DNA of 63,965 nt, the filler included, from Cladosporium halotolerans (Eukaryota), in assembly GCF_011745625.1 (NCBI RefSeq). It is 4 parts of 4 records of this genome, joined end to end, with 100 filler letters (N's around TTAATTAATTAA, not from the genome) between each part and the next. Parts side by side here need not be neighbours in the genome. Positions count along the whole stretch, not along the records: positions 37,978 to 56,429 come from NW_027191552.1; 3 more parts are not named here. One strand, given 5' to 3'. Numbering within the stretch: position 1 is the first letter of the stretch; each line of letters opens with the position of its first letter. Below the pieces are notes generated by a model, which saw only the letters and a program-made list of their open reading frames with translations, had not been told where the DNA came from and did not search any database. Positions 19,419-59,462 of the stretch are shown in pieces. Made by a program: the position numbers and the translations under genes.

Positions 19419-19419
19419 G

Positions 19420-24667: not shown

Positions 24668-25869
24668 TGTTTCCGCAGAGGTTGGGTTGGGAACGATCAA
24701 ACCTAAGGCCTTCAGGGAGGAGGGCGGACTATTGCCTCGACATCGCAGGCTTGCTCGTGCTGCAGATCGCACGATCGGCGAAGACTCCGGGCAGTTTGCT
24801 GACACGACTGCACTCCGCACGAACGTCGTTGAAGCGTGGTTAGTGTAAAGTTTATCGCGGCCACTACAACGAGGTACAAGTCTCCGTTGCAATTGCTAGT
24901 GAGCGCAGTCAAGCTGTGTCGTGTGTGCACGCATGCTGCGGTGTGCATGAGCGTCCGTCTCGTCCTATCTTCCCTCCCGTTGAAAGTAATCAACTCGCCA
25001 AGGCCGTCTCTGCCTGCTCACTCCCGCCACGCTTGGAATGCGGATGCCACACATTCCACAGCCATGGCACAGCGGCCCCTCCGCCTTGGGGTGAGCAAAC
25101 AGCTGCGGACTAATGCAGTGCCGTGCCACCCACGCCGCCTAGCCGATGTGGTCCGAAGAAGCCGCTTCTCCGCACTTCATCAAAATCCTTGCGCTGCCAT
25201 GTTAACTCCATAACATCCTCTGCACTTTGGTCAACAGAGGCCTTGCCACCTCTGACTGTGCAGGTGAGATCTTGAAGCCTCCATTTATACTTCTATTGCA
25301 GCGTTTCAAACTACCAGGGGCTTTTTTTCCCGTGATCATGATACATCCAAACTATTCAGCTTATTGCAGGCCCAGCTATCATCTAGGCAAATCTGATGGC
25401 CCTCCATCTGCGCACCCTTCGGGTGTACATTATCCAGGCCAAGGATTCACACTGGGATCCACATCCACTCACACCCATGAAATTTTCTCGCTCCTCATTG
25501 ATTATTTCGCTTTCGCACTGTAGTACCGATCGAAGAGAAATTTCCATAAGTGGGTTACTGAGAGAATGAGAGGACAAGGGCTCAGAGCCATGTGCGCCTA
25601 TAGCGAATACCACTCTTCCAGAGTTGCTTATCGTCTACTCTTGATTGTAGGACTGTGCTTATGAGCTTCATTCAGACTTCTCTACGACGAGGAAATAAGA
25701 TTGCAGAAAATCAAAACACCCGCGCATCGCTATACCTCCCAGCACACAAAGCCGTCACTTCACTAGACATGCTTCGTCAGAGCATTGCTAAGATGATTTC
25801 ATAACGTCCAATTGGGTTTAGACAAGCAGATGAGCTTGATATGAGACCCTGCGTTATTGTTAAGACCTC

Positions 25870-31965: not shown

Positions 31966-31967
<2 letters not shown>

Positions 31968-32006: not shown

Positions 32007-32008
<2 letters not shown>

Positions 32009-37977: not shown

Positions 37978-38147
37978 CTGGAATTGATCACATTCAATTC
38001 CAAGAAAAATACAATGTCTGCAGACAGTCTGCAGACAACAAGTAATTGTCTGGTCTGCTTATATAATGACTTTGCCGATGTCTGTTTGTCTGATTACGTG
38101 ATCAGACAGACAGACAGTCTGTCTGTGTCTGTCTGATGAACACCCTG
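37978..38147 (-). mobile_element. 5' end of a hAT element (CAGGGTGTTCATCA TIR, CAGAC-type subterminal repeats)
   Basis: Reverse complement reads CAGGGTGTTCATCAGACAGACAC... and aligns with the left end of the element at 51744; the flank is an intron 3' end (CTAAC branch point). Confidence 0.82.
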
Positions 38148-38163
38148 CCTAACATGATCGAAG

Positions 38164-38510
38164 GCAACTTTCTCATCGGCTTTCTTACTCCCTTTGCGGA
38201 CTCTGGCATCAGCTATGGTTTCGGCTTTGTCTTTTTCGGCACAAATTTGGCCGCTGGAATCATGGTCTATTTCTTGCTGTACGAGACCAAGTCGCTTGCT
38301 CTCGAGCAGGTAGACGTCATGTACAGCCAGAAGAATCTGAAGCCGTGGCACAGCAGTGAGTGGATGCCGGCGGGTTATATTGACCGAAACAAACGCGTCC
38401 CGGAGACCTTCGAGCGTCGATGCTCGCCTATCGGTCAATCCATGGGTTTACAAAACATGCGCAAGAGTAGAGAAGGATCCGAATCGCCGCCTCCATATTT
38501 GCAGGCCTAA
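38164..38510 (+). CDS. last exon of an MFS hexose/sugar transporter (upstream part not in this contig)
   Basis: NFLIGFLTPF...YGFGFVF...VYFLLYETKSLALEQVDVMY...KPW.S..W.P; preceded by CTAAC...AG acceptor. Confidence 0.8.
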
Positions 38511-39184: not shown

Positions 39185-40458
39185 ATGGCTACAGCGCGTA
39201 ACGTCGAAGCTAATGACTGTCGAATGCTCGAGACGGGCACAAAATTAACCCTGGACAATTTACACAAGGTTCTAGAGCGGCACGAAGTATACAGCGCCTT
39301 GATTTGTAGCTACCATGGCTATGCGATCCGGAATTTACATGACCACTTGCGACGGTTCACCCTGGCACTACAAGAGAGAAGAATGCGGTCGTGGAGGAAT
39401 GTAAGCCATAAAAACTACTCAGACCAGCCGAGGTTCCATTCCCACCGCCATTAGAAGAGCCAATCGCCACGCTTGGAACACCGGTCAAAACGTTCATCTG
39501 CGAGGAGCCGGAATGCGAATACATCAGTATCAATTGTAACGGTATTCGTATCCATTGTAACAGAGCGCTTGGCTTGAGATCTTCAGCAGAAGAGCGGGAA
39601 CACTGGCATTCGGTCTGGGCGCAGACGTTCTTCAAGTCAGCTGGGCTACAACGGTACTTCACCGTTCAACATGACGATAACGAGAATAACACCGCTAGCG
39701 GAACAATTGGCAGCGCAATCCAGAGAGGTAACACGGCAGAAGAATCCGGCAGTCGGCAGGCATAGCCGAATATCGCAGACTTGACGGATGTTCTGGAAGA
39801 CTGGGACATAGCAGTCAGCAAACACCAAGAAACGTTGGAGGTCGCCGACGCCGAGATCGCGAAAACTGACCTCACGCTGTGGTTCAGAAGAACAGGTTGG
39901 GCAGAGCATCTGTCTGGTAGCCATCTCAAACATTTAAGCCAAGCCAGTCGGCTGCCAGATCGAAGAGAAAGAATGCTCCAGAAGGTGGCGGAGTTGGACA
40001 GCAGTCTCATCGAATGATGCGTTAGCGGGCTGTCGACTCTGGATCATGGAGTTCGACGACGGCTTCGGAGTGCGAAGCAGGCGGAGGCGGATGTGAGGCC
40101 GCTAGCAATGCTCCAGAACAGTGGTAGCCAGCAGAGATACGCAGTGTACATGGCGAGGCTGCTCTGCTACTGTCTTAGGGTGTTGCCGGATGGCGAGAAT
40201 GCGGCAGCTAGCGTTGACGCCCACCCAGATGCGGAGCGTAGCGACGACATCAGCTCCGAAAGTGGTATAGAGTACAACGGTGAAGGAAGCGACGATGGAA
40301 ACGACATCGTCGAAGCCAGACCCGACGCCACATTCCAAGCCGTCGTCAACGACCTCAAAGATGCTCGTAGGTTATATCCGTGGCGAGGCAGGCAGAAAGA
40401 GCTGGCGGTCAGACTGAGACAGGCCGTACAGGATTGCTGGGAGATCGTTGAGGGATAA
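39185..40458 (+). pseudogene. DUF3505 (OrsD-like) N-terminal region of the telomere-linked RecQ-helicase-like family, degenerate and truncated
   Basis: LICSYHGYAI..L.DHL, C...EC.Y....IRIHC, W.SVWAQTFF...RYFTV, WFRRTGWAEHL, LRSAK...RPL..LQ...SQ.RY; frameshift near 39360, stops at 39763 and 40015. Confidence 0.68.
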
Positions 40459-41766
40459 TGCCTGTTCGCCATTATTCGAATGACCCAGCAGCACACCCGC
40501 AAGGCCTATCGCATTAAACCCCGCGGAGAAGCCCGCTTAAGTCCTTCCAGAGTATGTATAAGGATTGCCAGATCACATGCGAGCTTTGCACACGTCCTGT
40601 GCTCGCCTTCATCCTACGCAATGAGACATGCTCGGCCTTGGCGAGACTTCACAAGGGCACGCGAGACGGCTTCGGCTGCGTGACGTAGCACGCAATGACG
40701 GCGACTCTTGACACCGTTTTTTGTTTGGATTGAGGTTGGATTGATCATGTGGCTAAATATTCGCCCTTGTCCCTTGTTTGCCCAAGCAAACAAGGCTAGC
40801 AAAGAGGTTTTTGCTGCGTTGTTTTTGGACCAGTCTTTTTTTACAAGGGGCTTCTTGGAAGGAAGGAACCAGAGTAGTGGGAAAAGAAAACGTTAAAGGC
40901 GTGATGATCAACAGCGAAGAAACCAATGTCTGAGGGTTTTCGCCTCCCCTGAGAAAGCTGTGACAGCAAGCAGTTTGCAGGAGAGGAGAAAAATGAAAAA
41001 CAAAACCGAATCCCAGACCGACATCAACAACTTCAGCTTAGAGTAAGGCGTGAGATAAAAGGCAAGCGTCTGAAAACAGTAGAGTAAGCTCAATAAAACG
41101 ACTCATTCGAATTCCCTCCAGTTGTTCGAAGATAGTCTCAATCATGCAACTCAGCGTCAGTAAGTGCGTGGTGGTCTGGCAAAATCTGTATAAGAATGTA
41201 ATCAAAATTGCTGTGGCTTCAAAGCGTGTATCTGGAGTCTGAGAGGCGGTCGCTAGCGGCGTAACAAACTGTTCTTGCAGAGACAATTCCTCAATCCTTC
41301 GCAGAACCGTAGCAAGCATCAACGTCGGATCTGCCAGTATCTGACAGCAGGCTGGGTTACATGACATTGCCTTTGATACTGCTAAGGCTCGCGACCCGGC
41401 ATAGGCGAGTGGCGGGAAATGTATGACGACACTGATGCTGGTTTCAGCGATTGGGCGTCTCAAGCTGAAGCCTAAGAGGTCATGCTGGGAATGCTGCCTC
41501 TGACACTGCAGAGCGTACCGGATTTAGGGTAGCCGGTACGATTTCAGGCTCGGAGGGCTATTGCTCGGTCAGTTGTAGGTTTGGCGTTTGTTGCCAAATC
41601 CAAACCCATCAATGGACTGAGGTTTCACGCCTTATCGCAGGACACCCGCGGTCCCGACCGAATTGCTGAATCCCCAAACGAGGGCCTGCAGCTGCTCAAG
41701 GAAGCGATCGATGTCTTGAAGTTTACCCTCAAAGCAGGCGTTGGGCAGAGGGAGGAAGTGGCCGCG

Positions 41767-42886
41767 CTAACCCATAGGGCCAAGCGCGTTGGCACCAATT
41801 TTATTGCCGCCGCCAGCACCGCCGCTGGCGCCGTTTACGTTGCTGCCACTGTTTGAAAACGCATGGTTCACGCTAGCCGTATTCAAGCTACCGTTCGAGT
41901 TTGATTGGTTGTTGTAGCCGGTGTTGTATCTGTTACTTGACGCAACGGGGAGAGGCAGAGTGTTGCTCTGCAGCTCTCGGCCAATGTCGTAGTATGTGCT
42001 CGAGTCAATGGCACGGCGCTTGATATAAGCGAGGAAGTCATCAAGGGCTTCAATAGCGCGACGGCAGGTGTCCATGCTTTGGATGTTGTGAACGTGATCA
42101 TTTGGGGTAAAAGCGGAACCGTAGCCATTGTACTGTGCCCCATTTGGCTGGTAACCTAGGTATGGGTTAATTTGATCGTTAAAACCATGGTAGGAAGACG
42201 GTGTGAGCCGCGCAGCCAAGTAAGCGTGTGGGTCAGAGGGCGAGTGCGACGGATAGTGATGCTCCCCTTCCTGTGGACCGAGGCCTCCATTGGCACCATC
42301 AGTGCGCGCGATTGCGCCAGGCTCGAGTAAGTCCATCAAGGTGCTCCTGTCGGCGTGAGTCTTCACATGCTTCTTGAGGTCCTGAGGTCGCTTGAATGCC
42401 CTGCCACAGAAGACACACTTGTGCGGCTTCAACGGCACGTGAATGCGGATGTGCGAGGTCATGTGGTCACGCTTGACGGTTGATGTACGGCAAACGCCCC
42501 ATTGGCAGGTGAGGTTGAGGTTGTTTGTGCTCTTGCGGCCGATATGACGTTCGCAGACGTGATTCTGGGAGGGTATTAGCGGCCGATGTTGCAGTGAGTC
42601 ATGCTTTTGAAATAAGGAACGACTGCCGACACGGTGCCGGCAACGACCCGTGTCCGAGTGTTTTAACTTGACGACTTACGTAGAGGGCATGAGCGCTGTC
42701 GCACCGCTCGTCGCATCCCTGCCACCGGCAGGTCAGCTCGTCAATCGTCGAACTCTGCGTGTTCTGCACCGGCCGCACGGGGGGCGAGGGCTGGCTGACG
42801 AGCTGCTGCACCTGCTTAGCAGAAGCTTGCCGCTTTTGTGGTACAACTGCAACATCTTCGGCGACGGTCTCCTCCAAGTTTCTCAT
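41767..42886 (-). CDS. pacC: PacC/Rim101 pH-response C2H2 transcription factor, C-terminally truncated (about 334 aa)
   Basis: Three zinc fingers TCRWQGC...[21 protein letters not shown]...[40 protein letters not shown]; intron 42679-42565; TAG at 41769-41767 with PacC-like LQDIDRFLEQLQA continuing in frame beyond it. Confidence 0.88.
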
Positions 42887-44482
42887 GATGTCGCGCTGAG
42901 GAGGTATTTTCAAGACGATGCCAAAAGCGTCTTGGCGGCAATAGAACTTTCTCGGGTCGAGGCTCAGCTTGCTGAGCCAAAGAGAGAGAGCTGTCGACGC
43001 TGGAAAACAGCGCAAAGCACGTACAGAGTCAGGCCGTGACGCGTAGTGCTGTACGAGGAGATGGTTTGCAGGCACGGGAGTAGGGCGAGTGTGAAGCAAC
43101 GGGATGATAGGTGTAAGCGTGACGGGCGGAAGAGGGGAACAGGTATATGAGAGCACGCGCACATTCCAAGGCAAACCAGCAGTAAGACAGCGGCTGCGGT
43201 AAACTCCCAGAAGCTACGGCCGATTTGGACTTATACTGCCCTGTTCGTTATGTATGCATGACGAACGATGAAAGGCCGCAGATGATCGCCACCCATCCGG
43301 ACGCCGGGCCAGCTTGGCAGGTATTAGCTAGTGATCACCAGGCTTACTCTCGTTGGCCTGGCTGAGACCGCGTGCGAAACGCCAAGCCCCAATGCGCGCT
43401 GCGAGTTTTGCTTGTACATGGTGACGCATGCCGTCTTCGTGCTGTGAATTGGGTTCTATTGGTCGCGATCATACCGAATCGGGCACACAAGAGGTGTACT
43501 TGATGATTAACCCTGCCGCATCACTTGAATGCAACCGGAATGTATGCCATCTGCCATCACCGAAACCAAGTTTCCAGTCCGGAGAAGGATCTTCAACTTA
43601 AGACTTTTTGGGACCCAAAAGGCCATGACTGACAGTAGGAAAAGGAGCGGTCCTTGGAGCTTTTGCGAGTTTTACCACGTCTTCTGTCTACTTGTAGGGA
43701 TCCTGGTCTAAAATGTCCTCAGTCGTCATTTTCGAATTGTGCAGCACAGCAAGATGGCCGGTGTTCTGATGACCAGACTTCCGATGATCAGGGCCAGCGA
43801 GGTTCAGCAGACTCGGGAGGACGACGCCGGCTTGGACGGCTTGCCCTCTGCCGCTCAAAGTATAGCTTCGCATGCGTCCCAACCTTTGAAGATGCTGTCC
43901 GATAACATTGAGCCCTTTCGAGAACAATGCTGACGCAGAATGATCCGTAGTTGGAGCTACCACTGTATTGAACAACTGACGCTTTTGCTTCGGCCGCATG
44001 CCTTTGAGTCCGCCACTCGAAGGAGCTTTCAATTGGCCGGCGAAAAGCCCTAGAGTCGGGCTTGGAAGGGCGCTCGGGCCAGATAGTGGGAAGCTTATCC
44101 CAAGCGATTTGGTCCTGAAAACCCTGCGCGAATGACGAACTTGTGGTCTGAAGTCTGTCGAGCACGCGGCTTGCCAGCCCGTTGCCTGCTCTTCATCTGT
44201 GCCGCGCTAGAAGCTACCTACAGCTCGACAGCTCCACACCGCATGCTCACCCATCGATTGGTCAGGAGCGAGCCGAATCACTGCTTTGCACCAAGCCGAG
44301 CGGCCAGACGCCACGTAACGCCCCGAGGTCATCAAGACACTGCCCGCTCAATTAAAACTATTCTTCACAAGAGCGTCCCACGAAGAGAAGCCAAATAGCA
44401 AGCAAACACGGCGGTTGTCTCTGCGCCGTCTCCATTCGCCACCAACGCCTGTGGGGGCACAGGTCGCAGCAGCACCGCTAAG

Positions 44483-45829
44483 ATGAGTGCCAGCAGCAAC
44501 GTGGTAGGATTGCACTACCGGGTGGGCAAAAAGATCGGCGAGGGCAGCTTCGGCGCAATCTTCGAGGGCACAAACTTATTCAATAATACGCCAGTCTCCA
44601 TGAAGTTCGAGCCGCGCAAGAGCAATGCCACACAACTTCGTGACGAGTACCGTTCCTACAAGATCCTCGCGGGGAGCCGTGAGTACCTTACTGATCAAAT
44701 CACGTGACCCGTGGCGAGCTAACATGAAGTGAACGTTATGCAGCCGGTCTACCGAACTTATACTACTTCGGCCAGGAAGGCCTGCACAATGTGTTGGTCA
44801 TTGACCTGCTTGGCCCCAGCCTAGAAGAGCTCTTTGACCGTTGCGACCGCCGCTTCTCTATTAAGACCGTCGTCATGGTCGCCAAGCAGATGCTGTCGCG
44901 TGTTCAGACCATTCACGAGAAGAATCTGATCTACCGCGACATCAAGCCTGACAACTTCGTCATCGGCCGCCCCGACACGAAGTCGCAGAACGCTATCCAC
45001 GTTGTTGACTTTGGTATGGCGAAGCACTACCGTGATCCCAAGTCGAAACAGCATTTTCCTTACCGAGAGCGGAAGTCGTTGAGCGGAACGGCGCGTTACA
45101 TGAGTGTCAACACTCATTTCGGCCAAGAGCAGTCGCGACGAGATGATCTGGAGGCGCTAGGCCACGTGTTCATGTACTTTCTACGAGGTGGTCTGCCCTG
45201 GCAAGGCTTGAAGGCGGCGAATAACAAGCAGAAATACTAAAGCATTGGCGAGAAGAAGCAGACGACCGCTATTAAGGATATATGCGATGCCTTCTCAGAA
45301 GAGTTTAGCCAGTACCTATGGTACGTACGGGTCCTAGGCTTTGAAGACACGCCTGATTACGACTACTTGCGTGGCCTCTTGACGAAAAGCCTTCAAACCA
45401 GAAGACGGCGAGTACGACTGGACGAAACACAACAGCGGCAAACGCTTGGACATACCGCAATGCGCATCGCAATCACAATTGCACCATAAGGGCGTCAACC
45501 CTTCCGCAGGAGACCTCAAAGCAGGCGCCGGCGCCGGCCAACGAGCATCACGCGCATCCATTGCCCAAGACCGATTCAACGCTATCCTACCCAGACTAGT
45601 GGCTACCCGAGCAAGCGATTCCAGACTATCTCGGGAGCAACCTGGAACAAGCCACAACAGGGCGGACTTGGTCAAGCGCAGGAGTAACGGCACGCAACTC
45701 GAAGCGTCCGCGAACAGCATTACCGTGCCGCATCCCTCCATTTCAAACCTCGCTGGAGGGCTGAGCCAACCGCAATTTCCGAGTCAACGGCAGGACTCGG
45801 GTGATGTCGCGCGGCAGCAACGACAAGTA

Positions 45830-45860
<31 letters not shown>

Positions 45861-45928
45861 CGCCGGAGCCCAAGGAGACGGAATGCTCTATAGAGCAGCT
45901 GATGCTGAAGGTGCTGTGCTGCGGATAG
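44483..45928 (+). pseudogene. casein kinase I, Yck/CK1-gamma type
   Basis: SSNVVGLHYRVGKKIGEGSFG, intron 44679-44743, [39 protein letters not shown]; premature TAA at 45238-45240, frameshift near 45385; C-terminal LCCG palmitoylation motif. Confidence 0.9.
45836..45859 (+). repeat. (CAG)8 poly-Gln tract
   Basis: Eight perfect CAG units in the CK1 tail. Confidence 0.9.
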
Positions 45929-47069
45929 GATCCTCTGGGCTAGCATAATGACAAAGATACGGGTTGGTCGTGTCATCCTTCGACCTTGCACCGTTTCCAT
46001 GCTCGTGAATCATCATTTCATGTGGACGGCTGAACTCTTTTCTCCAGAGTCCATGACGGGTGAAAGGTGTAGGAGTTGAGGCGGTTTGGCTGGTAGAGGC
46101 GTGCCTCTTATGACTCATCGAATACGCGGCGCTGCTAATCTTGAGCTCCACGACTTGTCACGGCCAGGAAGCTTCGATGATGCATGCCTGTTGCCTGCTG
46201 CATGTGGCATTGAAGCGCTCCTACTCAGATATGCTTCTCCAGAACGCTAGACGCTCCTGCAGGTCACTCATTCGGCCGCATTGTGCCCTTCTGGGATGCA
46301 TCGCCCACCACCACGAAAGCCCTTCCAGCACTGCAGAAGCTTTCGATCACGATTACAAATCATGCGGTATTTTCCGCTCAAGCAGACTTTCAGAGCACAG
46401 AGCCATGCACCTCACTGAATGCTCCTTGCACTGCAAATTGCACAAGCGATAACATCCTTCCCCATTGCAAGGTCTCGTGTATCTTCTCGACTGGCAGGTC
46501 GATGGCCTACTCTGGCGACTTGTAGGAGGCCTACCGAAATGGTTCTTCGGCAGCAGCCTGTACGTATGGGCCGGGTAGGACAGTGTTCGTGCCACTACTG
46601 CCTCGGGGCCCTTGCTGAGTGTCTCCAGTAGGAATATAGGCCTGTAGGGGTTTCTGTTTGAAATTGTCGCTTATGCGGCTTGTGCAAGAGGACGAACTTG
46701 GCCGTGCGCCACCTGTGGGGAACGTACTTTCAGGTCAAGCGACGCCTTATCAGGCGCTACGATCACCTTGCCAGGCACCGGCCACAGTTTGGGCAGAGAC
46801 AACTGTGATCCTGCAGTCCGGGTGCTTGTCTAGGCCTCAACTGGGTTATCGCCGTCTTCACTTCCTCCAACGTCAGTTTCGGCAGTTTTATCTTCAGTAG
46901 TGCCCTCCGATACTCCACAAGTTTTCGGATTCCCCAGATTATCTTAGCTCTCCCCTATTCTGATCCAGGAATGAGACCTAAATTAGTAGAGGCCGCAACG
47001 CAATCTTTCGACAGTTGGTTGAATGCTGATCGAAATCTTGCAACCATTCACTGCGGATAAGGACGAGCA

Positions 47070-48300
47070 GAAACGTCATCCTTGAAGTGATAGCACCCTG
47101 CTGCCATCTTGCACCTCTTTGCTAGCTTTTTGTAGGCCGCTCTACACACCTCTGCTTTCACTGTCTCATCAAGAATTTCCTTTGCCAGGTATGCTTGAGG
47201 AAATCCTTTGCCCTTTGCACAGTCGAAGCCCGCGCATGTCTTACTTCGTTGATAAAGCTTGCAAGCTTTCTTTCAAGCTCACCTTGAAGGCCCTCAATTG
47301 GTGCTAGATTTGGTGAATTGCCAGGACGGTTCACAAAAACAATGCCTTGCTTTTAGAAATCATGCTGTGGAAGCCGGCGAGCCATGAGATGAGGTCCTTG
47401 GTCGTCTTCCTATATAACCATCCTCCTGCATGGATTCTGTCAACCAGATCTCACGTTAGCAGGGGAAAGGAAGCTTCCTGTACACCTCGAATGCATAACA
47501 CACAATATTGAGCTTCTTAGTCCCTTGTTCGGGGGCGCGATGATGATAGGGGAAGAGGCACTCTGAAATGCAGGCTTTTGGGCCACCATTTTCGTCAGCA
47601 TTGGCACGCATGCAAAGGCGTCGGATCTTGGCCTGCGTGTTCGTCCAAGTGAGATAATGATGCTCGGGCGTGCCGTAGATCCTTGCATTTGCACGCTGCT
47701 CTTGGTTGATCTGTTCTCGCCTGTGCATTGCATTCATCAGGTTGACGCTGCGATCCCTCCGAAGTCTGATCTTTGAGCTCTCAGACAGTCCAAGGCCTCT
47801 TCACTGCGCAGCAATCGCCACAGGCAGCAGCTCACTGCTCGAGCTTGAACCGCGTTGCGGCGCAGCGTTGGTACGAGCTGGTGTTGATGGGTAGGGTGAT
47901 ATGTTGGTTGGGAATACCGCAGAAGTGGTAGGCCTTCCCGTAGCAGCAGATGATAGTTGCCGCCGCTTCAACCTCAAATAGACACGCCTGACGCTTTGAG
48001 AAGTTCGTAGCACTAAGTTCGTTACGTCTATATGCGCGGTGAGATGTAAGGGCTCTTTGTTCGTCTGGATTTGCTCTGCATTGCGTTTTGTCTTGCAAGA
48101 TGTTATAGACCTGCTGGGTGCCGAGCGTCTGTATATGACAATATATATCGTCCAGTTTCTGGCGCCCCCTGAGATGACGGTTGGCTGGGTCGTGCATGGC
48201 ATGATAGGGATGTTCTTGAACACCCCTGCGGACAGTAAGGGATATCTCATCGGCGGGAGCGGCTCGTCTTGGTCTGCCGCTCCGTGCTAGAACAGTGATG
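47070..48300 (-). mobile_element. heavily degenerate Tc1/mariner transposase remnant (boundaries approximate)
   Basis: Minus-strand translation around 47420-47280 gives EDDQGPHLMARR...GIVFVNRPGNSPNLAPIE, resembling the ED...H...WPxNSPDLNPIE DDE motif; many stops. Confidence 0.6.
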
Positions 48301-49382
48301 GCCTCTTGTAGATCTGCTAGATCTGGGGTGGCGCTGAGCGTTCTGGCAGTTTGAATAAGGCCATTTACAGTCAGTCGATCTTTTCACATCCAGTCTCTGC
48401 ACGATCTGTTCTGTGGCATATTGAGGTCGAATGCGTATGCGATAACGCAATGGCGCTTTCAGAGAGGAGTTTCAAGACCTCTTCCCATCGTGTATTGAGA
48501 GCACCAGTACGGTGGTTGTGGTGTTGTGACGGCTCAGAATGCTTGAGGATCAAGCTTGCTCATATTGCAGTGACGGGTGGTTCCGATCCTTTGCCGAATT
48601 CGAAAACTTTGGGAGAAGCAGAGGGTAACTGCTTGCGCGCAGTCTTGGGAAGCGCCGTCGAGCCCGCGGACCACTTCGCCTAGAAAAAGCCAAGGAACTA
48701 GTTGTGGCGCCACCAGGAGAGATGCGTCATGAGCGTACCACTGCCTGCGCAGTCTATTCAGCCCATCTTCACCGCGCATGGGGTCGCTTGGCCGACGTGA
48801 TCGCTGTCGGCTCCAGCGCGGAGCCACCCACAACGCCTGCGTGCTTGATCATGTGGGGCGACGACAGGGTGTTGACATGACCCTGGGCAAGATGTCATTC
48901 GTTGTTCTAGCTTGTCGTCGGCGAGGGTTTCATCCCCGTGGAGGGGGCGGCGGCTTATGCCGAGCTCCCTTGAATTCAGATTTTAGCGTGTCTAGCGGCA
49001 TAGATCATCTTCCTCTGGGGCCTCATGTGAGCTCACTAACTGACGTTTGCCCGTTTCTGCTCCTCGCTCCGCTGCACCGCACTTGCTATTTCCCTTGATA
49101 AACTCAAGCATATTGTGGTCGTGTCGTGTATGCAATCTCCACCTAGGTCGCGATTATCCAGCACCACGAACGACACTCGGTTATTTTGTGGAGGTTGTTG
49201 AACGGCGCAACGCCAAACCGGTTGAGCAGAATCTAGCCGGTCTTGAGGATATGCTTGCTGCGCGTAGCCGTCCACCTTTTCTGCTATGTCCACTTCCTGA
49301 CCTGCACCCAGCTCTAGCAAGCTTCGCACACATACACACTTCACAGTAACCGTCGAACCAGGCGTGCGATCGCCTTAGCGCA

Positions 49383-50747
49383 ATGGAGACATACAACGGC
49401 CACGTCCGCACACCCGCGGACGCAATTATTCTTTTTGAGGCATGCCATATCGGCCTGCTTCCCCGTGTGCAGCGACGTCTGTCAGAAAGGGAGAGGCAGT
49501 TAATCAAGTCTGGCTCTGTCTTCGTCTGGGAGGAGAGCGAGGCCGGCATTCGTAGGTGGACAGACGGAAGGTCATGGAGTGCCAGCCGCGTGTCTGGCAG
49601 CTTCCTAACCTACCGCGAAATGGAGGGCAAGCGAGGTGTCAGCACCTTTGAGAATAGCGCTCCTTGCGAGTCGATGCAGAACGGTGCGGAACAGGAGTCG
49701 GACGGCGGTTTCGATGGCTACCGCTATAAGCCTGACGGTCTTGTGAAACAATCCTTTTCGATTACAACCAATGACGGCCGGCACATGCACCTCATCAGCT
49801 ATTACTCGCAACCCTCGCAAGCAGGACAGCGCCCGGTGCAACCCACAAACGACCCTCAACTCCATCACGTTTGGACAGAGAAGGGCATATACTCGGGATC
49901 GACTATCCACGGGCAGAGCACCGTCCCTGCCGTCATTGGCGGCCCTATGGGCTGGCCTGGCTACATTCATGCTGCACACCAGCGTTCCATTTACGGTTGT
50001 TCTTCGTACGACTACGCGCCTCCACACCCGAGTGCCTGGTCTCCTCCTGGCCCCATGCGCAAGCCACCTCCTCACCCTCACTATGGCCCGTATTATCACC
50101 ACCCGGCCTTTGGACACCCAATGCAACATCCACCCCAACCTGCCAAAGGACTTAACTCTTGCGAGAGGCCACAACCTCACGCCATATGCTCTGTTCTTCC
50201 TCTACCTCCTCACTACGACCGTGGTCCGCCGTCGCCGCCACCAGTCGGCGGTTTGCTACGAGACTACCCTTCGCGATACCACGGTCGCGGCTCCTACCAA
50301 TCTCCGCCCATTAGCACTCCAAGTTTCCCTTCGGCCTCCACGGCCGCTCCTCCGCCCTCTTTGACCGCCCGCCCTGCACCTCCTCCGGTCAAGAGGCTTG
50401 AGCGTAAGGAGGACGACCGCCACGACTCGACAGAAACCCAGCTTAAATCGCAGGCCCGGCCAACGCCGGAAACGACCTCGCAGCACTCCACCGCTGCCAC
50501 GGCCTCAACTCCTTCCACCACCAACTCTACCGCCTCCAGTGCCCGCGCTGGACAGAACATCCCCAGCATCAACCTCATGCTCAAAGCGGGTGTTAACGGC
50601 CAGCCAACCGTTCGCTCCAGCAGCTGCAGCCCGAGCGGCTCCGGGCGCATGGCATCCGACATTCCCATGCACAAACTCGGCTTCGAGGCGGACAGAGATA
50701 TGCAGGCGCTCCGCAATCTCGACAAGTCGACATTCAAGGCATACTAA
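49383..50747 (+). CDS. pac2: Gti1/Pac2 (WOPR) family transcription regulator, Pac2 subfamily
   Basis: METYNGHVRTPADAIILFEAC.IGLLPRVQRRLSE, SGSVFVW, RRWTDG.SWSASRVSGSFLTYREMEGKR, YRYKPDGL.KQSFSI...HLISYY; Pro-rich tail ending DMQALRNLDK; intact 454 aa. Confidence 0.92.
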   Translation: METYNGHVRTPADAIILFEACHIGLLPRVQRRLSERERQLIKSGSVFVWEESEAGIRRWTDGRSWSASRVSGSFLTYREMEGKRGVSTFENSAPCESMQNGAEQESDGGFDGYRYKPDGLVKQSFSITTNDGRHMHLISYYSQPSQAGQRPVQPTNDPQLHHVWTEKGIYSGSTIHGQSTVPAVIGGPMGWPGYIHAAHQRSIYGCSSYDYAPPHPSAWSPPGPMRKPPPHPHYGPYYHHPAFGHPMQHPPQPAKGLNSCERPQPHAICSVLPLPPHYDRGPPSPPPVGGLLRDYPSRYHGRGSYQSPPISTPSFPSASTAAPPPSLTARPAPPPVKRLERKEDDRHDSTETQLKSQARPTPETTSQHSTAATASTPSTTNSTASSARAGQNIPSINLMLKAGVNGQPTVRSSSCSPSGSGRMASDIPMHKLGFEADRDMQALRNLDKSTFKAY

Positions 50748-51743: not shown

Positions 51744-54481
51744 CAGGGTGTTCATCAAACAGACACAAACAAGCAGCTTGTTTGTTTCATCACGTAATCA
51801 AACAGACAAACAGTACTTCGGCTGTTACGTAAGCAAACTAAACAATATTCCTCTGTTTGTAACTTAGACTGTTTGTAGATTTTTGGTAGAGATCGCGGTT
51901 GACTTGGCACAGAATATCAGCACGCAGAAGTCGAGTCTTCTACCCTAATCCTAACCCTTCCCGGACGCATTCGATGTGGTGCCGCTGCCGGGTGTTGCTA
52001 GCGCTGACGCGCCACGTGCGACGCGCGATGCGCGACGCGGAGATGTCGCGCGGTCTGTCTATTTAGGCAGTCCGGCGGCTTACCACTACCGTCTGACGGA
52101 GCCGTTATCGTCATGGATATCTTCGCAATGTCAGCGGACCTAGAAGACTCAGCAGCTCCGCATACCGCTCTGTTGCCGAATGCCCGGCGGAACGAAGGTG
52201 GTCTACTCCTCGCCGGTGCGAGTTGCAGTGGCTATACACCTGCTCCGCCCTCCAAGAAGCCGCGGGGAAGCTGGATACGGAAACATGGGGAACTTCTGAT
52301 ACGAGACAGTGACCTGAGCCCAGTGTGGCTTTGTACACTATGTCATGGCGACTCTGTACATCACCCTGTCAAAGAATACATTCTGCCTGTCGTCTCTACA
52401 ACACTAGCGCAGCGTCATATGGAGCGACACGGGTTCGACCTTTAGGGTCGGCCTATCCATCGGGGGCAGAAACGTCGGGCTGGCCCTATGCTCGAGAACG
52501 TTGACCGTCAGCATACGGCCGATAATTTGACCTTCAACGACAGTGGCTGGATTGATGCTTTTGTACGCTGAACCGTGATGACCAACCAGTCCTTACGTCA
52601 AGCAAGCTCGCAATCACATTTGCGGTTACTGATGTTCCAAGACCCTCGCGTGGAGAGTTTGGTGCCAAGTAGCGACAACACAGTGCGAGAATGGATTATG
52701 CAAGCAGCGTCCGATGCCAAAAGTACGATCGAGAAGTCACTGAGGCGGGCAGCCAGCAGCATAACGATATTCTTCGACAATTGGACCGCCAACAACGGCC
52801 TTGACTTCCTCGGTGTGATCGCGCACTATCTAGACGCATATCTGCATCCGCGTGCGATACTTCTTGGTCTGCGAGATACCCGTGGATCGCATAGCGGTGA
52901 AAGTATCGCAGAGGAGATTTTACGTCTGATACATGACTACGATATCGGCGAGAGGGTGCAGTATTTCATGTCAGATAATGCATCTGCGAATGACCGAGCG
53001 ATCAAGGTCTTATGCGGGAGTCTGGACATTGATCCGGGATCTCATCACTTGCGCTGCGGGGCCCACATTATCAAAATCGTAGCTAAGGCGGTGCTCTACG
53101 GTATCGACGCTGAAGCGCTCGAGCCGGACGCGCATGAGGAATCCCTCTCAGACAGCCACGATATAGCAGCGTTCGAAGCGATTGTCCGCTCTGTCCCATC
53201 CGAAGAAGCGCTTCAGACATGGCGTCGCAAGGGCCCCGTCGGGAAACTTCATAACCTCGTCAAGCACATCCATAAAACACCCAAACGTCGACGTTTCTTT
53301 GGAATGAAGCAGAACGTCGATGCTCATTCTGACGATGGTCGGATCTATCGGGTGATCGTGAACGGTGGCATCAGATTATATAGCAGCTGCGACTTGATCG
53401 AGCGTGCCTTGGAGCTCCGCAATGCCATCGAGCTTTACCAAACCCATTTCCGATCGCTCGGGACTGCGATCGATTGCCCGCCTTGGATTGTCTGGACGCG
53501 GGTGACTGGTCGCAGCTGCAGCAATTGCTTCAAGTGCTGCTCCCCTTGAAGAGTGCCTCCTTACGCCTCCAGAAAGATATTGATACGAAGCACGCGCTGT
53601 GGGAGCAGCTTGCGACGTTTGACAGCTTACTCATTTAGTTCGAGCAGCTCAAGGAGAGGTGCCGATACGAGCCTAAAGCCACATGAAAATCACGCGTCAG
53701 CCTCGGTTGGAAGGAGCTCGATAAGTACTATAGTCTGTCAGATGAGACCTTCGGGTACGAATGGCAATATTCCTCCATCCCCACCTGAAGATGGCTTGGT
53801 TCGAAAGACATTGGGGATGCCGACCGGCGTGGATCGATGCTGCCAGAGATGCAATCGACAGAGCATGCGCGCTTGCAAAGGCGAGATGGCCACAAGATGC
53901 GCAGAAAGCTGTTTCACTGAATCCGGTAGAGCCGACAATAAAATCTGAGTCGAGGTTCGACGAGTATAATACACTGCCACAAGAAGTCGACTCGATGGAT
54001 GATTTACAGCTCTATAGGCGGGAAGAGCGGACATCGGGACTGTATTCGCCACAGCCGCTCGACTGGTGGCGTCAAAACCATACAAGGTTTCCTCTCTTAC
54101 GCCATCTGGCGTTCGAGTTCTTCGCGATACCAGCGAGTGCCTCAGCGAACGAAAGGACGTTCTCGATTGCTGGTAACTCGGCGGGCAACGATAGGCCACG
54201 GACGCTGTATGAGCTTGCGGAAGCGCAACAATTATTGCGTAGCTGGTATGACGAGGGTACAGCTTGAGGCGTTCGCGACGCCTGCTCACCATGAAGGGAC
54301 TATTCCTCCACCCACCACACCCTGCCTACATATGCCAAGATCGGAATGATGTCTTGGCAAATAACACAAACAGACAAATAAATCGAGGCCATTCCTCAAA
54401 CAAACAGACAAAACGCTCAGGCTTAGGTAATCAAACCAAACATTCTCTGAAATCTTGTTTGTTTGTTTGAAGAACACCCTG
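51744..54481 (+). mobile_element. hAT DNA transposon, degenerate, both ends present (CAAAC-type subterminal repeats)
   Basis: Left end CAGGGTGTTCATCAAACA; right end TGTTTGAAGAACACCCTG (1 mismatch); no matching 8-bp TSD. Confidence 0.9.
52113..54267 (+). pseudogene. hAT transposase pseudogene
   Basis: WLCTLCH...H...H, FDNWTA, MSDNASAND, RCGAHII, WRRKGPVGKLHN, FLHP, AIPASASANERTFS; several stops and frameshifts. Confidence 0.88.
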
Positions 54482-58707: not shown

Positions 58708-59462
58708 ATGAACGACGTCAGCACCACCCGTAGTCCGCCTCTAGAGGCACTCATACTCGACAAGCAGTGTATAGCTCCCACGTCTGGCACCTCGTTAGGT
58801 GTTAGTGGAGTAATCCCCACGCTACAGTAAGCACTGCGCAAGCTTCCCACTAAAACCATGCGACCTGGTCAGCATACTGACACCACTGTGAAGAAATGTC
58901 GTTGCTACGGTAAACCTCGACTGTCGCCTCGACCTTAAGACCATCGCTTTGCACGCCCGTAATGCAGAATACAATCCCAAGGTGAGGGTGTTCTCATGGT
59001 AGTGTAGGCTCTTCCTGACTGTTCTCCAAGCGTTTCGCAGCCGCGGTTATGCGCATACGTGAGCCCAAGACGACTGCCCTCATCTTCGCATCTGGCAAGA
59101 TGGTCGTCACGGGCGCGAAGTCTGTAGATGATGTTAAGCTTGCGAGTCGCAAGTACACGCGTGTGCTTAAAAAGCTTGGCTTCAATACGAAGTTTACAGA
59201 GTTCAAGATACAAAACATCGTTGCTTCTTGCGACATCAAATTCCCGGTCCTGCTCGAGGGGCTGGCCACCGGCATCACATGTTCAGCTCCTACGAACCTG
59301 AGCTCTTCTCGGGTCTGATATATCGCATGATGATTGCCAAAAGTCGTTTTGTTGATCTTCGTTTCTGGAAAACTTGTCTTGACCGGGGCCAAGGTACGGG
59401 AAGAACTGTACCAGGCCTTCGAGCTCATATACCCAGTGCTGTCTGACTTTCGCAAGACTTGA
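58708..59462 (+). pseudogene. tbp: TATA-binding protein (TBP/SPT15) copy, diverged, two frameshifts
   Basis: [68 protein letters not shown]...[14 protein letters not shown]...[20 protein letters not shown]; introns 58827-58893 and 58982-59030; -1 near 59270 and +1 near 59331. Confidence 0.9.

What the first reader, a model, noticed from the sequence alone, without database searches (positions are those of the whole stretch)
41540..50747. Cassette of diverged extra copies of core regulators (pacC, CK1, pac2) within 10 kb, echoed by ssk2 and TBP on neighbouring contigs
Seen: pacC, a Yck-type CK1 and pac2 lie on one contig between DUF3505, Tc1 and hAT remnants. ssk2 (contig B) and TBP (contig D) have similar TE-rich surroundings. 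pacC, CK1 and TBP keep introns, which points to DNA-level capture rather than retroposition. All five carry substitutions at positions I recall as near-invariant. Known: these genes are usually single-copy core genes in Pezizomycotina. Inference: an accessory chromosome or giant transposon has accumulated a signalling and transcription toolkit (pH, osmotic stress, morphology switching, basal transcription), partly decaying and partly intact. Only the three-gene linkage is supported; cross-contig linkage is not.
Basis: partly seen in the sequence, partly recalled or inferred. Interest (0 to 1): 0.75.

Follow-up and report, generated by a model that had tools for sequence, protein, structure and literature searches.

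The report
Extra, decaying copies of core regulators
A transposon-flanked stretch of a Cladosporium genome holds old, fast-evolving spare copies of three master regulator genes: a shortened but still open and transcribed pH regulator, a broken kinase and an intact morphology regulator, much like the spare pH-regulator genes already known from Fusarium.

Summary
Contig C (window 37978-56429) carries three genes between hAT transposon copies: a PacC gene, a Yck-type casein kinase 1 gene and a pac2 (WOPR) gene.

All three are extra copies.
- A full-length PacC of the same named species lies on a 1.39-Mb contig.
- The genome's own sequencing run holds second CK1-, pacC- and pac2-like contigs at single-copy depth.

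The pacC copy is a 1.55-kb gene-sized DNA duplicate.
- It keeps its intron and is about 72-75% identical in DNA to the normal genes.
- A TAG after codon 334 cuts it short. The next 149 homologous codons carry 5 more stops and 2 frameshifts, and the last 195 codons are absent.
- The 334-codon frame is open, is spliced in RNA-like contigs, and ends at the same stop in variant strains.

The CK1 copy is a pseudogene with an in-frame TAA and a frameshift, both seen in a second sample.

The pac2 copy is intact. It has an 80%-identical partner in another assembly.

TBP on contig D has two frameshifts. Whether Ssk2 on contig B is an extra copy is unresolved.

No Starship captain gene and no linkage between contigs was found. 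Trees hint weakly (AU p 0.02-0.045) that the pacC copy came from another Cladosporium lineage.

The closest precedent is the set of truncated, TE-flanked pacC homologues of Fusarium oxysporum. I file this as a new member of a known kind, of moderate interest.

The parts
37978..38147 (-). End of a hAT transposon copy. Its terminus CAGGGTGTTCATCA at 38134-38147 faces the cassette, and the body runs off the contig start.
   Evidence: Inverted repeat with 51744-51812. Alignment and TIR search. Depth 873 against a baseline of 32-35 in X1.
38163..38324 (+). 3' fragment of a sugar transporter gene, abutting the hAT end.
   Evidence: Pfam Sugar_tr, E 3.5e-09, profile positions 398-452 of 452. Contigs about 99% identical in X4 and X5.
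39412..39762 (+). Weak OrsD/DUF3505-like ORF, next to a roughly 7x repeated stretch (39826-40441).
   Evidence: Pfam PF12013, E 5.4e-4, 20.8 bits, below the 26.6 cut-off. Depth 258 in X1.
41309..41766 (-). Decayed continuation of the pacC copy: 149 homologous codons with 5 stops and 2 frame changes. Homology ends at residue 501 of 695 of the normal protein.
   Evidence: tblastn of normal PacC P0128 against the window. blastn and tblastx against normal loci.
41767..42564 (-). pacC copy, exon 2 (265 codons plus TAG at 41767-41769). It holds zinc fingers 2 and 3 and the region matching the processed active form.
   Evidence: Pfam zf-C2H2. 69-73% identity to normal Cladosporium PacC. Identical to the 334-aa NCBI model P0362.
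42565..42679 (-). pacC copy intron (GT..AG on the minus strand), at the conserved position.
   Evidence: Joint 42564->42680 in X3 (no other letters), X4 and X5, and absent in X1. Same exon boundary in L001, L004, L008, L011 and L014.
42680..42886 (-). pacC copy, exon 1 (69 codons, first half of zinc finger 1).
   Evidence: tblastn, 71% identity to P0128 residues 1-66. DNA homology ends at 42876.
44483..44678 (+). CK1 copy, exon 1 (ATG, glycine loop, catalytic lysine).
   Evidence: Sequence read directly. Frame is continuous with exon 2 after a GT..AG intron at 44679-44743.
44744..45928 (+). CK1 copy, exon 2. It has an in-frame TAA at 45238-45240, a frame change between 45385 and 45402, and ends ...LKVLCCG before the stop at 45926-45928. 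It is a pseudogene.
   Evidence: PDB alignments to S. pombe Cki1 on both sides of the TAA. X1 record 1 and X3 record 10 reproduce the stretch with no differences.
45986..49065 (.). Repeated DNA (about 3-5 copies by depth) between CK1 and pac2.
   Evidence: Depth 96-156 against 32-35 in X1. No Pfam family at E up to 10 in the ORFs tried.
49383..50747 (+). pac2 (WOPR, Gti1/Pac2) copy: an intact single-exon ORF of 454 codons.
   Evidence: Pfam, E 9.3e-45. 57-61% identity to normal Cladosporium Pac2 and 80% to P0242. Trees and alignment. X3 record 13 and X4 record 20.
51744..54481 (+). Complete hAT transposon copy (2738 nt) with terminal inverted repeats. The transposase frames are broken.
   Evidence: TIRs at 51744 and 54468-54481. 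Pfam Dimer_Tnp_hAT. Depth 290-535 in X1.
20591..24895 (-). Ssk2-type MAPKKK on contig B, an open 1435-codon frame. Whether it is an extra copy is not resolved.
   Evidence: Pfam Pkinase plus MEKK4_N. Best representative 65% identical. No organism names available.
58892..59462 (+). TBP copy on contig D. It has two predicted introns and two frame changes in the second repeat (near 59270 and 59332). It is a pseudogene.
   Evidence: Pfam TBP hits in three different frames. Sequence. PDB alignment.

Best explanation
WHAT IT IS. Contig C is a transposon-rich island in a Cladosporium genome. A cluster-mate identical to the window's PacC protein is named C. halotolerans and lies on a contig of the same length as contig C. 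The island has collected gene-sized, DNA-level duplicates of three core regulators, all of which also exist as normal copies elsewhere in the genome. The copies are old and evolve about ten times faster than the normal genes. Each has met a different fate.

(1) THE pacC COPY encodes a 334-residue protein.
- It keeps all three zinc fingers and the part matching the processed, active PacC.
- Its regulatory C-terminal half is cut off by a stop codon and then decays.
- The open frame has been kept free of lesions, is transcribed and spliced, and ends at the same stop in variant strains.
- Inferred, not shown: it works like the truncated pacC(c) alleles of Aspergillus and the truncated pacC_a/b/c of Fusarium oxysporum. 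That is, as a PacC form that needs no Pal/Rim pH signal to reach GCCARG sites, acting as a constitutive activator/repressor or as a competitor of the normal protein.

(2) THE CK1 COPY is a transcribed pseudogene.

(3) THE pac2 COPY is an intact, fast-evolving WOPR transcription factor. It is kept open in at least two lineages, so it is probably functional.

LINKAGE. The clustering of the three most likely reflects repeated insertion and survival of duplicates in a permissive, hAT-rich region. It does not look like the copying of one ancestral block.
For: EXTRA COPIES.
- Normal PacC P0131 (645 aa, named C. halotolerans) lies on a 1.39-Mb contig.
- The window's 334-aa protein equals P0362 of the same species, on an 18,452-nt contig, which is the length of contig C.
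- In X1, a 50,317-nt contig at depth 32.4 matches CK1 with 31 differences in 214 nt and 32 in 170 nt, almost all at third codon positions.
- Further X1 contigs at depth 33.2 and 34.1 match pacC and pac2.

GENE-SIZED COPY.
- Homology to normal pacC loci covers only 41309-42876, at 71-75% DNA identity.
- No CK1 or pac2 lies beside normal pacC in L008, L011 or L014.

AGE AND RATE.
- dS to 15 normal loci is 0.82-1.48 and dN is 0.14-0.17.
- Omega is 0.11-0.17, against 0.004-0.057 between normal genes. My three-taxon arithmetic on those numbers gives omega of about 0.19 on the copy's own branch.
- The end branch is 0.47-0.65, against 0.02-0.06 for normal PacC.

OPEN FRAME KEPT.
- All 8 disabling lesions lie in the last 149 of 483 homologous codons.
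- If lesions fell uniformly, the chance that none hits the first 334 codons is (149/483)^8, about 8e-5 (my calculation).
- Logan variants P0364 and P0365 (2 and 4 residue differences) end at the same ...ALGPMG.

TRANSCRIPTION.
- Spliced contigs occur in X3 (0 differences), X4 and X5, but not in X1.

DNA-BINDING PART.
- The zinc ligands are kept, and the recognition helices are unchanged apart from one I-to-M change in finger 2.
- The ORF ends at about residue 326 of a 668-residue Aspergillus PacC.

CK1.
- TAA stands at residue 230 in Cki1 numbering, and homology goes on in frame to residue 283.
- Both lesions are reproduced in X3 record 10.

pac2.
- The frame is intact.
- P0241 and P0242 share derived residues and form a clade (support 100) beside 9 normal Cladosporium Pac2.

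PRECEDENT.
- Passages of PMC6994591 state that truncated PacC acts as a pH-independent dominant activator. They also describe TE-flanked truncated pacC homologues, 60-74% identical in DNA to the core gene, that are expressed and nuclear.
Against: - No protein, binding or phenotype data exist. The activity of the 334-residue product is inferred only.
- Omega behind the stop (0.15-0.23 over 45-69 codons) is hardly higher than before it. Most of the divergence therefore predates the truncation, and present-day constraint on the open part is not shown by dN/dS.
- 15% of sites that never vary in normal pacC are changed, including 7 residues in the zinc-finger stretch.
- The kinds of runs X3-X5 are guesses by the tool (X4 is labelled 'DNA?'). 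A spliced contig there is the basis for calling them RNA-like.
- pac2 constraint rests on open frames alone, with no DNA of the partner copy.
- GCCARG sites in the pacC/CK1 intergenic region (4 in 1.6 kb) are not above the window's background of 1.7 per kb.
- The lesion-position test assumes uniform lesion risk along the gene.
Confidence: 0.6

Rival explanations
1. Pure debris. All three copies, and TBP, are dying duplicates without function. The open 334-codon pacC frame and the open pac2 frame are leftovers that have not yet been hit, and their transcripts are noise.
For: - CK1 and TBP are plainly broken.
- The pacC copy has changed 113 of 748 otherwise invariant sites and lost its 3' third.
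- Omega before and after the stop is similar.
- The pac2 copy is only 73-75% identical in a domain that is 96% conserved among normal genes.
Against: - The lesion distribution in pacC is unlikely by chance: about 8e-5 under uniform risk (my calculation).
- The same stop and an open frame occur in variant strains.
- pac2 is open over 454 and 453 codons in two lineages that differ at 20% of residues.
- Omega is about 0.15-0.19 over a long branch.
Confidence: 0.2
2. Mobile island. The cassette is cargo of a Starship, another giant element or an accessory chromosome. It entered this genome from a different Cladosporium lineage. This can be true together with the best explanation.
For: - In a 20-row PacC tree the copy sits on the side of the non-sphaerospermum Cladosporium lineages (support 96), away from its own genome's normal PacC.
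- AU tests: copy plus own normal PacC, p 0.045. Copy plus the C. fusiforme/C. halotolerans group, p 0.028. All normal genes as one clade, p 0.018.
- dS is lowest to the L003-L008 group (0.82-0.96) and higher to the others (1.05-1.48).
- The island is bounded by inverted hAT copies, and the short contigs end in the same hAT family.
Against: - The hypotheses were named after the tree was seen, and the p values are marginal on a very long branch in 'quick' trees.
- The pac2 copy falls outside all 9 normal Cladosporium Pac2 rather than inside them.
- No DUF3435 family appeared in any Pfam scan of the window.
- No target-site duplication flanks the complete hAT copy at 51744-54481.
- Depth equals core depth.
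- Presence or absence among isolates was not testable.
- No DNA of the own-genome normal pacC was in hand.
Confidence: 0.25
3. Relics of one large event. A segmental, chromosomal or whole-genome duplication, or a hybridisation, was followed by massive loss. These five genes are survivors.
For: - Silent divergence is similar for CK1 against the own-genome normal copy and for pacC against normal loci. For CK1 about 16% of all sites differ, mostly at third positions. For pacC pS is 0.50-0.65.
- Five regulator copies lie on small repeat-bounded contigs.
Against: - pacC homology stops at the gene's edges and no neighbour genes were co-copied.
- Normal pacC has no CK1 or pac2 nearby.
- X1 holds about 30 Mb of contigs, which I recall as an ordinary size for the genus.
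- PMC13672802 (passages) argues against whole-genome duplication in a related species.
Confidence: 0.1
4. These are the only copies, or the contigs come from a contaminant, or the lesions are assembly errors.
For: Nothing beyond the short length of the contigs.
Against: - A normal PacC of the same named species lies on a 1.39-Mb contig.
- Second copies appear in X1 at depth 32-34, equal to the island's unique parts.
- The CK1 TAA and frameshift are reproduced with 0 differences in X1 record 1 and in X3 record 10, from another sample.
- The copies are far from any normal gene (72% and 59% identity), so they are not a contaminant's normal genes.
Confidence: 0.02

Closest known systems
[quoted passage not shown]
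   Same: - An extra pacC stands beside a full-length core gene.
- The copy is truncated behind a conserved zinc-finger domain.
- It is surrounded by transposons.
- DNA identity to the core gene is about 60-74% there and 71-75% here.
- It is expressed.
- The same functional idea applies: a pH-independent PacC form.
   Different: - The origin is independent. The Fusarium, Dactylonectria and Zarea short forms make their own clade far from the Cladosporium ones.
- The frame here ends about 70 residues later than in FOYG_17356, FOYG_15914 and the A. fumigatus 276-aa form.
- A decayed continuation of the gene is still visible behind the stop.
- Location on an accessory chromosome is shown in Fusarium and not here.
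- Here the copy is linked to extra CK1 and pac2 copies.
pacC(c) truncation alleles of Aspergillus nidulans and the processed PacC27 form (recalled from the classic PacC literature; the general statement is also in PMC6994591)
   Same: Loss of the C-terminal half, while the zinc fingers and the first 250-330 residues or so are kept. In Aspergillus this makes PacC active without the Pal signal.
   Different: - Those are laboratory alleles of the single gene. This is a natural second gene with many further substitutions.
- Its activity is untested.
- Residue numbers for Aspergillus come from an A. ambiguus sequence used as a stand-in.
Expanded transcription factors and kinases on Fusarium oxysporum accessory chromosomes (PMC9934661; PMC6001611)
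   Same: Regulators are duplicated into TE-rich compartments. The copies are less expressed and diverged.
   Different: That work reports the CK1 and STE (MAPKKK) families as constant, with a single copy per subfamily in all filamentous fungi examined, and TBP as one of the most conserved families. Extra CK1 and TBP copies, even dead ones, are therefore not part of the known pattern.
Starship giant transposons (PMC12134995 and PMC13004909, search listing only)
   Same: They carry mixed cargo, hitch-hiking transposons and possible transfer between species.
   Different: The defining captain gene (DUF3435 tyrosine recombinase) and the element ends were not found in the 64 kb in hand.

Membership tests
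PacC/Rim101 transcription factors | Three C2H2 zinc fingers with the conserved PacC recognition helices | tested here: met
   Pfam zf-C2H2. The finger region aligns without gaps to normal PacC. All Cys and His ligands are kept, with 7 conservative changes.
PacC/Rim101 transcription factors | Branches inside the PacC clade | tested here: met
   Nested in the Cladosporium PacC clade (support 99-100) in trees of 50, 17 and 20 rows.
PacC/Rim101 transcription factors | C-terminal regulatory half: two YPxL/I motifs, the signalling-protease region and the inhibitory C-terminus (roles of these features recalled) | tested here: not met
   There is a TAG after codon 334. The first YPNL is destroyed (its Tyr codon is a stop). 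Homology ends at residue 501 of 695, so the rest is absent.
Accessory-region truncated pacC homologues (F. oxysporum type) | Truncated copy beside a full-length core gene, flanked by transposons, with DNA identity well below that of orthologues | tested here: met
   compared with passages of PMC6994591.
Accessory-region truncated pacC homologues (F. oxysporum type) | Common descent with the Fusarium copies | tested here: not met
   Separate clade. The Hypocreales short forms group apart on a branch of 1.79. The resemblance is convergent.
Accessory-region truncated pacC homologues (F. oxysporum type) | Location on a dispensable or lineage-specific chromosome | not testable with these tools
   No whole genome is held and the contig is 18 kb long.
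Casein kinase 1, Yck/Cki1 (plasma-membrane) type | CK1 catalytic motifs, and closest to Yck/Cki1 rather than Hrr25 | tested here: met
   Best PDB matches are S. pombe Cki1 (E 2.5e-91) and Yck2, ahead of Hrr25 (E 1.6e-65).
Casein kinase 1, Yck/Cki1 (plasma-membrane) type | Uninterrupted kinase domain | tested here: not met
   TAA at 45238-45240 stands in place of Cki1 residue 230, and the frame changes between 45385 and 45402. Both lesions are reproduced in two runs.
Gti1/Pac2 (WOPR) regulators, Pac2 branch | WOPR domain, and grouping with proteins that sources name pac2 | tested here: met
   Pfam PF09729, E 9.3e-45. Hits are named pac2. The copy is sister to 9 normal Cladosporium Pac2.
Starship giant transposon | Captain gene (DUF3435 tyrosine recombinase) at one end, with defined element ends | tested here: inconclusive
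   No such Pfam family was found among 175 ORFs of 110 aa or more over the whole window or in the shorter ORFs of contigs C and D. An element could extend beyond these short contigs.
Retroposed (processed) gene copies | Loss of introns | tested here: not met
   The pacC intron is kept at the conserved site. Introns are predicted in CK1 and TBP.

The most novel reading that the evidence does not exclude
The island is an old regulatory cassette that moves between Cladosporium species complexes. In a salt- and alkali-tolerant mould it supplies a signal-independent PacC and a rewired WOPR regulator. Extra Ssk2 (osmotic stress) and formerly CK1 (proton-pump and pH control) copies lie on sister contigs. 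On this reading, stress responses of the pH/salt axis are partly uncoupled from their sensors, giving an accessory 'stress-signalling toolkit' that contributes to extremotolerance.
Probability: 0.1. Interest if true: 0.75.

Novelty: new member of a known kind. Interest (0 to 1): 0.45.

Why it matters
Truncated PacC acts without its pH signal. A natural, long-kept truncated second pacC gene would be a simple way to shift a fungus's set-point for alkaline and salt responses.

So far this has been described for clinical Fusarium oxysporum. Here the same solution arose independently in Cladosporium. The searches also returned short PacC-like proteins in Aspergillus fumigatus, Penicillium, Dactylonectria and F. 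solani. That suggests a recurrent evolutionary route that could be tested.

The case also shows that CK1 and TBP can be duplicated in TE-rich regions, although here they are dying. Fusarium kinome and transcription-factor surveys report these families as constant.

For genome annotation, the 334-aa model is a truncated paralogue, and the CK1 and TBP copies are pseudogenes.

Tried and rejected
- Whole-genome search: no genome is held for this window. Normal copies had to be inferred from sequencing runs and protein databases.
- Earlier notes of this scan: none on this genome. The word search gave only unrelated phage and bacterial cases.
- RNA evidence: no RNA holder is listed among the 23 runs. 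The kinds of runs X3-X5 are guesses. Depth was not used to rank expression.
- Cassette in other genomes: the metagenome scan returned 20 loci. The 15 used and L016-L020 all read as normal full-length-type pacC without stops. No orthologue of the truncated copy turned up, so conservation of the three-gene linkage elsewhere could not be tested.
- RIP as the cause of divergence: 47 of the 113 copy-specific changes are C>T or G>A, spread over all dinucleotide contexts, and GC3 is 0.63 against 0.67-0.70. I rejected RIP as the main cause.
- Tc1 remnant: no Pfam hit at E up to 10.
- Composite hAT transposon: two inverted hAT copies flank the cassette. There is no target-site duplication around the complete copy, and the left copy is cut by the contig end. 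Left open.
- PacC-site enrichment upstream of the pacC copy: 3 GCCARG within 74 nt (43313-43386). The window as a whole has 111 sites, so this is not significant.
- Ssk2 as an extra copy: the best representative is 65% identical, and cluster members carry no organism names. No verdict.
- The 'careful' tree did not finish in the time limit. All trees and AU tests are 'quick' trees.
- The C-terminal tail of CK1 has no PDB match. Its reading frame rests on the long open frame and on a recalled EDGEYDW-type motif.
- A. nidulans residue numbers for processing sites are recalled. No A. nidulans sequence was in hand.
- Print search: searches returned no paper on PacC, CK1 or pac2 paralogues in Cladosporium, and PMC13672802 has no occurrence of 'pacC', 'accessory' or 'Starship'. 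Supplements of the cited papers were not opened. The gene-family tables of PMC13672802 could bear on copy numbers.

Full report
WHAT THE WINDOW IS

The 63,965 bases are four contigs separated by N spacers: A 1-19204, B 19305-37877, C 37978-56429 and D 56530-63965. No whole genome is held for the window.

The window's PacC-like protein is letter-for-letter the 334-aa NCBI model P0362. That model is named as a Cladosporium halotolerans protein and lies on a contig of 18,452 nt, which is exactly the length of contig C. The nearest full-length relatives of all genes examined are Cladosporium proteins. I therefore treat the organism as that species.

CHECK OF THE OBSERVATION

Pfam scans of all stop-to-stop ORFs of 110 aa or more (175 ORFs), plus shorter ORFs of contigs C and D, gave the following.

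- Contig A: a polyketide synthase cluster.
- Contig B: an Ssk2/MEKK4-like MAPKKK as one open 1435-codon frame (20591-24895, minus strand), a LINE, a hAT transposase and a GT28 fragment.
- Contig C: a sugar-transporter tail, a sub-threshold OrsD/DUF3505 hit, the PacC zinc fingers, a protein kinase, a Gti1/Pac2 domain (E 9.3e-45) and a hAT dimerisation domain.
- Contig D: TBP pieces in three reading frames.

The kinase is of the Yck/Cki1 type. Its best solved relatives are S. pombe Cki1 (E 2.5e-91) and Yck2, ahead of Hrr25.

The Tc1 remnant got no Pfam support even at E 10. That stretch is only a 3-5-fold repeat by depth.

ARE THEY EXTRA COPIES?

Yes for the three genes of the cassette.

(i) pacC
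- A full-length PacC named for the same species (P0131, 645 aa) lies on a 1.39-Mb contig.

(ii) Sequencing runs
- I laid four public runs on contig C at 80% likeness or more.
- Run X1 holds 99% of the sampled words and about 30 Mb of contigs. It is probably the source of the assembly, so it is not independent of it.
- X1 record 1 reproduces 38119-45817 without a single difference.
- X1 also contains a 50,317-nt contig at depth 32.4 that matches the CK1 copy with 31 differences in 214 nt and 32 in 170 nt. The listed differences fall almost all at third codon positions.
- X1 has one more contig at depth 33.2 on pacC and one at depth 34.1 on three conserved pieces of pac2.
- The unique parts of the island have depth 32-39. 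So the island and the second copies are all at single-copy depth in one genome of ordinary size. That argues against a contaminant.

(iii) Lesions are real
- X3, from another sample of the same coded organism, covers 44744-45528 with no difference. The CK1 lesions are therefore not an artefact of one assembly.

ANATOMY OF THE pacC COPY

Gene model
- Exon 1 (42680-42886) and exon 2 (41770-42564) give 334 codons. The intron (42565-42679) sits at the same codon as in five genomic loci of normal pacC.

What lies behind the stop
- tblastn with normal C. fusiforme PacC (P0128, 695 aa) shows that homology does not stop at the TAG (41767-41769). It runs on for 149 codons to 41309, which is residue 501 of the normal protein.
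- Those 149 codons hold five further stops and two frame changes. The last 195 residues have no counterpart.
- The first YPNL motif is destroyed.
- The region that I recall as the signalling-protease box, and the C-terminal YPTL, are gone.

Extent of the duplicate
- DNA homology to normal loci from metagenomes (L001-L014) covers only 41309-42876, at 71-75% identity.
- tblastx finds nothing of the neighbours.
- Normal pacC in L008, L011 and L014 has no CK1 or pac2 within the 8-10 kb held on each side.
- The copy is therefore a gene-sized DNA duplicate, not part of a copied block.

AGE AND SELECTION

- Nei-Gojobori estimates against 15 normal loci give dS 0.82-1.48, dN 0.14-0.17 and omega 0.11-0.17 before the stop. 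Between normal genes omega is 0.004-0.057.
- My three-taxon arithmetic on these numbers (copy, L003, L014) gives dN of about 0.14, dS of about 0.70 and omega of about 0.19 on the copy's own branch.
- Species of one Cladosporium complex differ by Ks of about 0.3 (PMC13672802, passages). The copy is therefore old.
- It was under purifying selection for most of its life, but much relaxed. 113 of 748 sites that never vary among the 15 normal loci are changed. There is no clear RIP signature.
- Behind the stop omega is 0.15-0.23. So dN/dS does not by itself show present constraint on the open part.

What does speak for constraint is the position of the lesions.
- All eight lesions (six stops, two frame changes) lie in the last 149 of 483 homologous codons.
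- Under uniform risk the chance of that is (149/483)^8, about 8e-5 (my calculation).
- Two slightly different Logan variants (P0364 and P0365, with 2 and 4 residue changes) end at the same ...ALGPMG.

Transcription
- Contigs with the intron precisely removed occur in X3 (no differences), X4 and X5 (about 99% identical, with one 27-nt gap), and not in X1.
- This is best explained if those runs are RNA-derived. The tool's labels for them are guesses.

WHERE THE pacC COPY CAME FROM

- In a 50-row tree the copy nests in the Cladosporium PacC clade on an end branch of 0.47, against 0.02-0.04 for its neighbours.
- The short PacC proteins of F. oxysporum NRRL 32931, F. solani, Dactylonectria and Zarea form a separate clade. 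An A. fumigatus 276-aa form groups with Aspergillus. Truncated, fast-evolving PacC copies have therefore arisen several times.
- Three other diverged short PacC-like proteins from JGI data (P0003, P0366, P0004) also fall inside Cladosporium. A single clade of all four is not rejected (AU p 0.25).
- The copy does not group with its own genome's normal PacC (AU p 0.045).
- It does not group with the C. fusiforme/C. halotolerans group (p 0.028). I recall both species as members of the sphaerospermum complex.
- Putting all normal genes in one clade, with the copies outside, is also disfavoured (p 0.018).
- These hypotheses were framed after seeing the tree, the trees are 'quick' ones, and the branch is very long. 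I read this as a weak hint of origin in another Cladosporium lineage, no more.
- Rows left out of the 17- and 20-row sets were redundant normal sequences and distant outgroups. The three JGI short forms were left out and included.

THE CK1 COPY

- Exon 1 is 44483-44678. A 65-nt GT..AG intron follows, then exon 2 from 44744.
- Alignment to S. pombe Cki1 is continuous on both sides of the TAA at 45238-45240, which stands in place of residue 230. It runs on in frame to residue 283.
- The only long open frame to the ...LKVLCCG end is then in another frame. The change lies between 45385 and 45402. The tail has no solved relative.
- The product up to the TAA would lack the last helices of the kinase fold and the C-terminal cysteines.
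- I call it a pseudogene. It is still represented in X3 contigs.

THE pac2 COPY

- It is an intact 454-codon single exon.
- It is 57-61% identical to normal Cladosporium Pac2 proteins of 464-506 aa, and 80% identical to one Logan protein of 453 aa (P0242).
- The two share derived residues at positions that are invariant in nine normal Cladosporium proteins and in other families.
- In the WOPR part they are 83% identical to each other and 73-77% identical to normal proteins, which are 96% alike among themselves.
- In the tree they form a clade (support 100) beside the nine normal Cladosporium proteins (support 93 for that group).
- Two open frames after that much change suggest a functional, rapidly evolving paralogue lineage. 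Without the partner's DNA I could not compute dN/dS.

THE ECHOES ON OTHER CONTIGS

TBP on contig D
- It keeps two predicted introns.
- Its second repeat needs three reading frames: Pfam positions up to about 26, then 27-47, then 48-85 fall in different frames.
- In the first repeat it differs from Chaetomium TBP at 14 of 81 residues, where yeast differs at 4.
- It is a pseudogene, which implies a working TBP elsewhere.

Ssk2 on contig B
- The frame is open and the kinase motifs are intact.
Whether it is an extra copy stays open.

SURROUNDINGS

- A hAT family with the terminus CAGGGTGTTCATCA has a complete 2738-nt copy at 51744-54481.
- A second copy has its terminus at 38147, faces the cassette from the left and runs off the contig.
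- A third copy starts at 63652, at the end of contig D.
- Their depth in X1 is 290-1006 against a baseline of 32-35, which explains why the assembly breaks here.
- The 13.6-kb cassette thus lies between two inverted hAT copies.
- I saw no target-site duplication around the complete copy at 51744-54481, and no DUF3435 gene in any Pfam scan.

HOW IT MOST LIKELY WORKS

Shown
- Extra copies.
- Gene-sized DNA duplication.
- Great age and fast evolution.
- One frame truncated yet kept open and spliced, one dead kinase, and one intact WOPR gene.

Inferred
- The 334-residue PacC keeps the DNA-binding fingers. The recognition helices are unchanged apart from one I-to-M change in finger 2.
- It ends at about residue 326 of a 668-residue Aspergillus PacC. 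That is beyond the processed active form of about 250 residues and before the parts that hold PacC closed until the Pal signal arrives.
- PMC6994591 (passages) states that truncated PacC copies act as pH-independent dominant activators in Aspergillus and Fusarium. It also reports that the Fusarium truncated homologues are TE-flanked, 60-74% identical in DNA to the core gene, expressed and nuclear.
- I therefore expect a signal-independent PacC form, or a competitor at PacC sites.

The link between PacC and a Yck-type CK1 is biologically suggestive. Plasma-membrane CK1 restrains the Rim/Pal pathway through Rim8 (PMC4472021, abstract in the listing) and controls Pma1 in Fusarium (PMC9786551, abstract in the listing). 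With the kinase dead I do not build on it.

COMPARISON AND NOVELTY

- This works like, and looks like, the Fusarium accessory pacC homologues, but it is not of the same descent.
- Fusarium surveys report the CK1 and STE kinase families as constant and single-copy per subfamily, and TBP as among the most conserved families (PMC6001611; PMC9934661). The dead CK1 and TBP copies fall outside that pattern.
- My literature searches found no account of such copies in Cladosporium.
- I rate it a new member of a known kind.

VERDICT

Interest is 0.45.

Noticed in passing
window 51744-54481; 37978-38147; 63652-63965: A high-copy hAT family (TIR CAGGGTGTTCATCA) with two distinct subterminal ends. Contig C starts and contig D ends inside copies of it. 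The orientation would allow the right end of D and the left end of C to be the two ends of one copy. With 10-30 copies by depth, this is not evidence of linkage.
   Followed up: partly
window 5536-12969 (-), 15423-16202 (+), 17176-19203 (-): Contig A holds a highly reducing polyketide synthase (KS, AT, DH, ER-like, KR, ACP), an FSH1 serine hydrolase and an NRPS-like reductase cut by the contig end. This looks like a secondary-metabolite cluster.
   Followed up: no
window 58892-59462 (+): The TBP copy on contig D needs three reading frames in its second repeat (two frameshifts) and is much diverged. It is a pseudogene of an essential, normally single-copy gene. Its lesions were not checked against reads.
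   Followed up: partly
proteins P0003, P0366, P0004 (JGI); P0030, P0052, P0053, P0072, P0065, P0069, P0079, P0110: Short (271-330 aa), diverged PacC-like proteins turn up in Aspergillus fumigatus, several Penicillium species, Dactylonectria, Fusarium solani and unnamed Cladosporium-like metagenome contigs. Truncated PacC paralogues may be a recurrent phenomenon well beyond F. oxysporum.
   Followed up: partly
window 43313-43386: Three GCCARG (PacC-site) matches lie within 74 nt, about 430-500 nt upstream of the pacC copy's start codon. This is not significant against the window's background.
   Followed up: partly
protein P0131 (normal PacC of the named species): The annotated normal PacC lacks two internal stretches that are present in C. 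fusiforme PacC and in the metagenome loci. These are probably over-called introns in the public model. They lower its apparent identity to everything.
   Followed up: no
window 45818-45874: A CAG repeat (poly-Q) in the CK1 tail breaks the Logan contigs of run X1.
   Followed up: no
window 60297-62672 (-) and 57107-58288 (-): Open frames of 792 and 394 codons on contig D have no credible Pfam family (only a Pinin hit below threshold).
   Followed up: no
window 27584-31813 (+), 35042-36607 (+): Contig B carries a LINE (endonuclease and reverse transcriptase in several frames) and a second hAT family with an open 522-codon transposase frame. It lacks the TIR of the contig C family.
   Followed up: no
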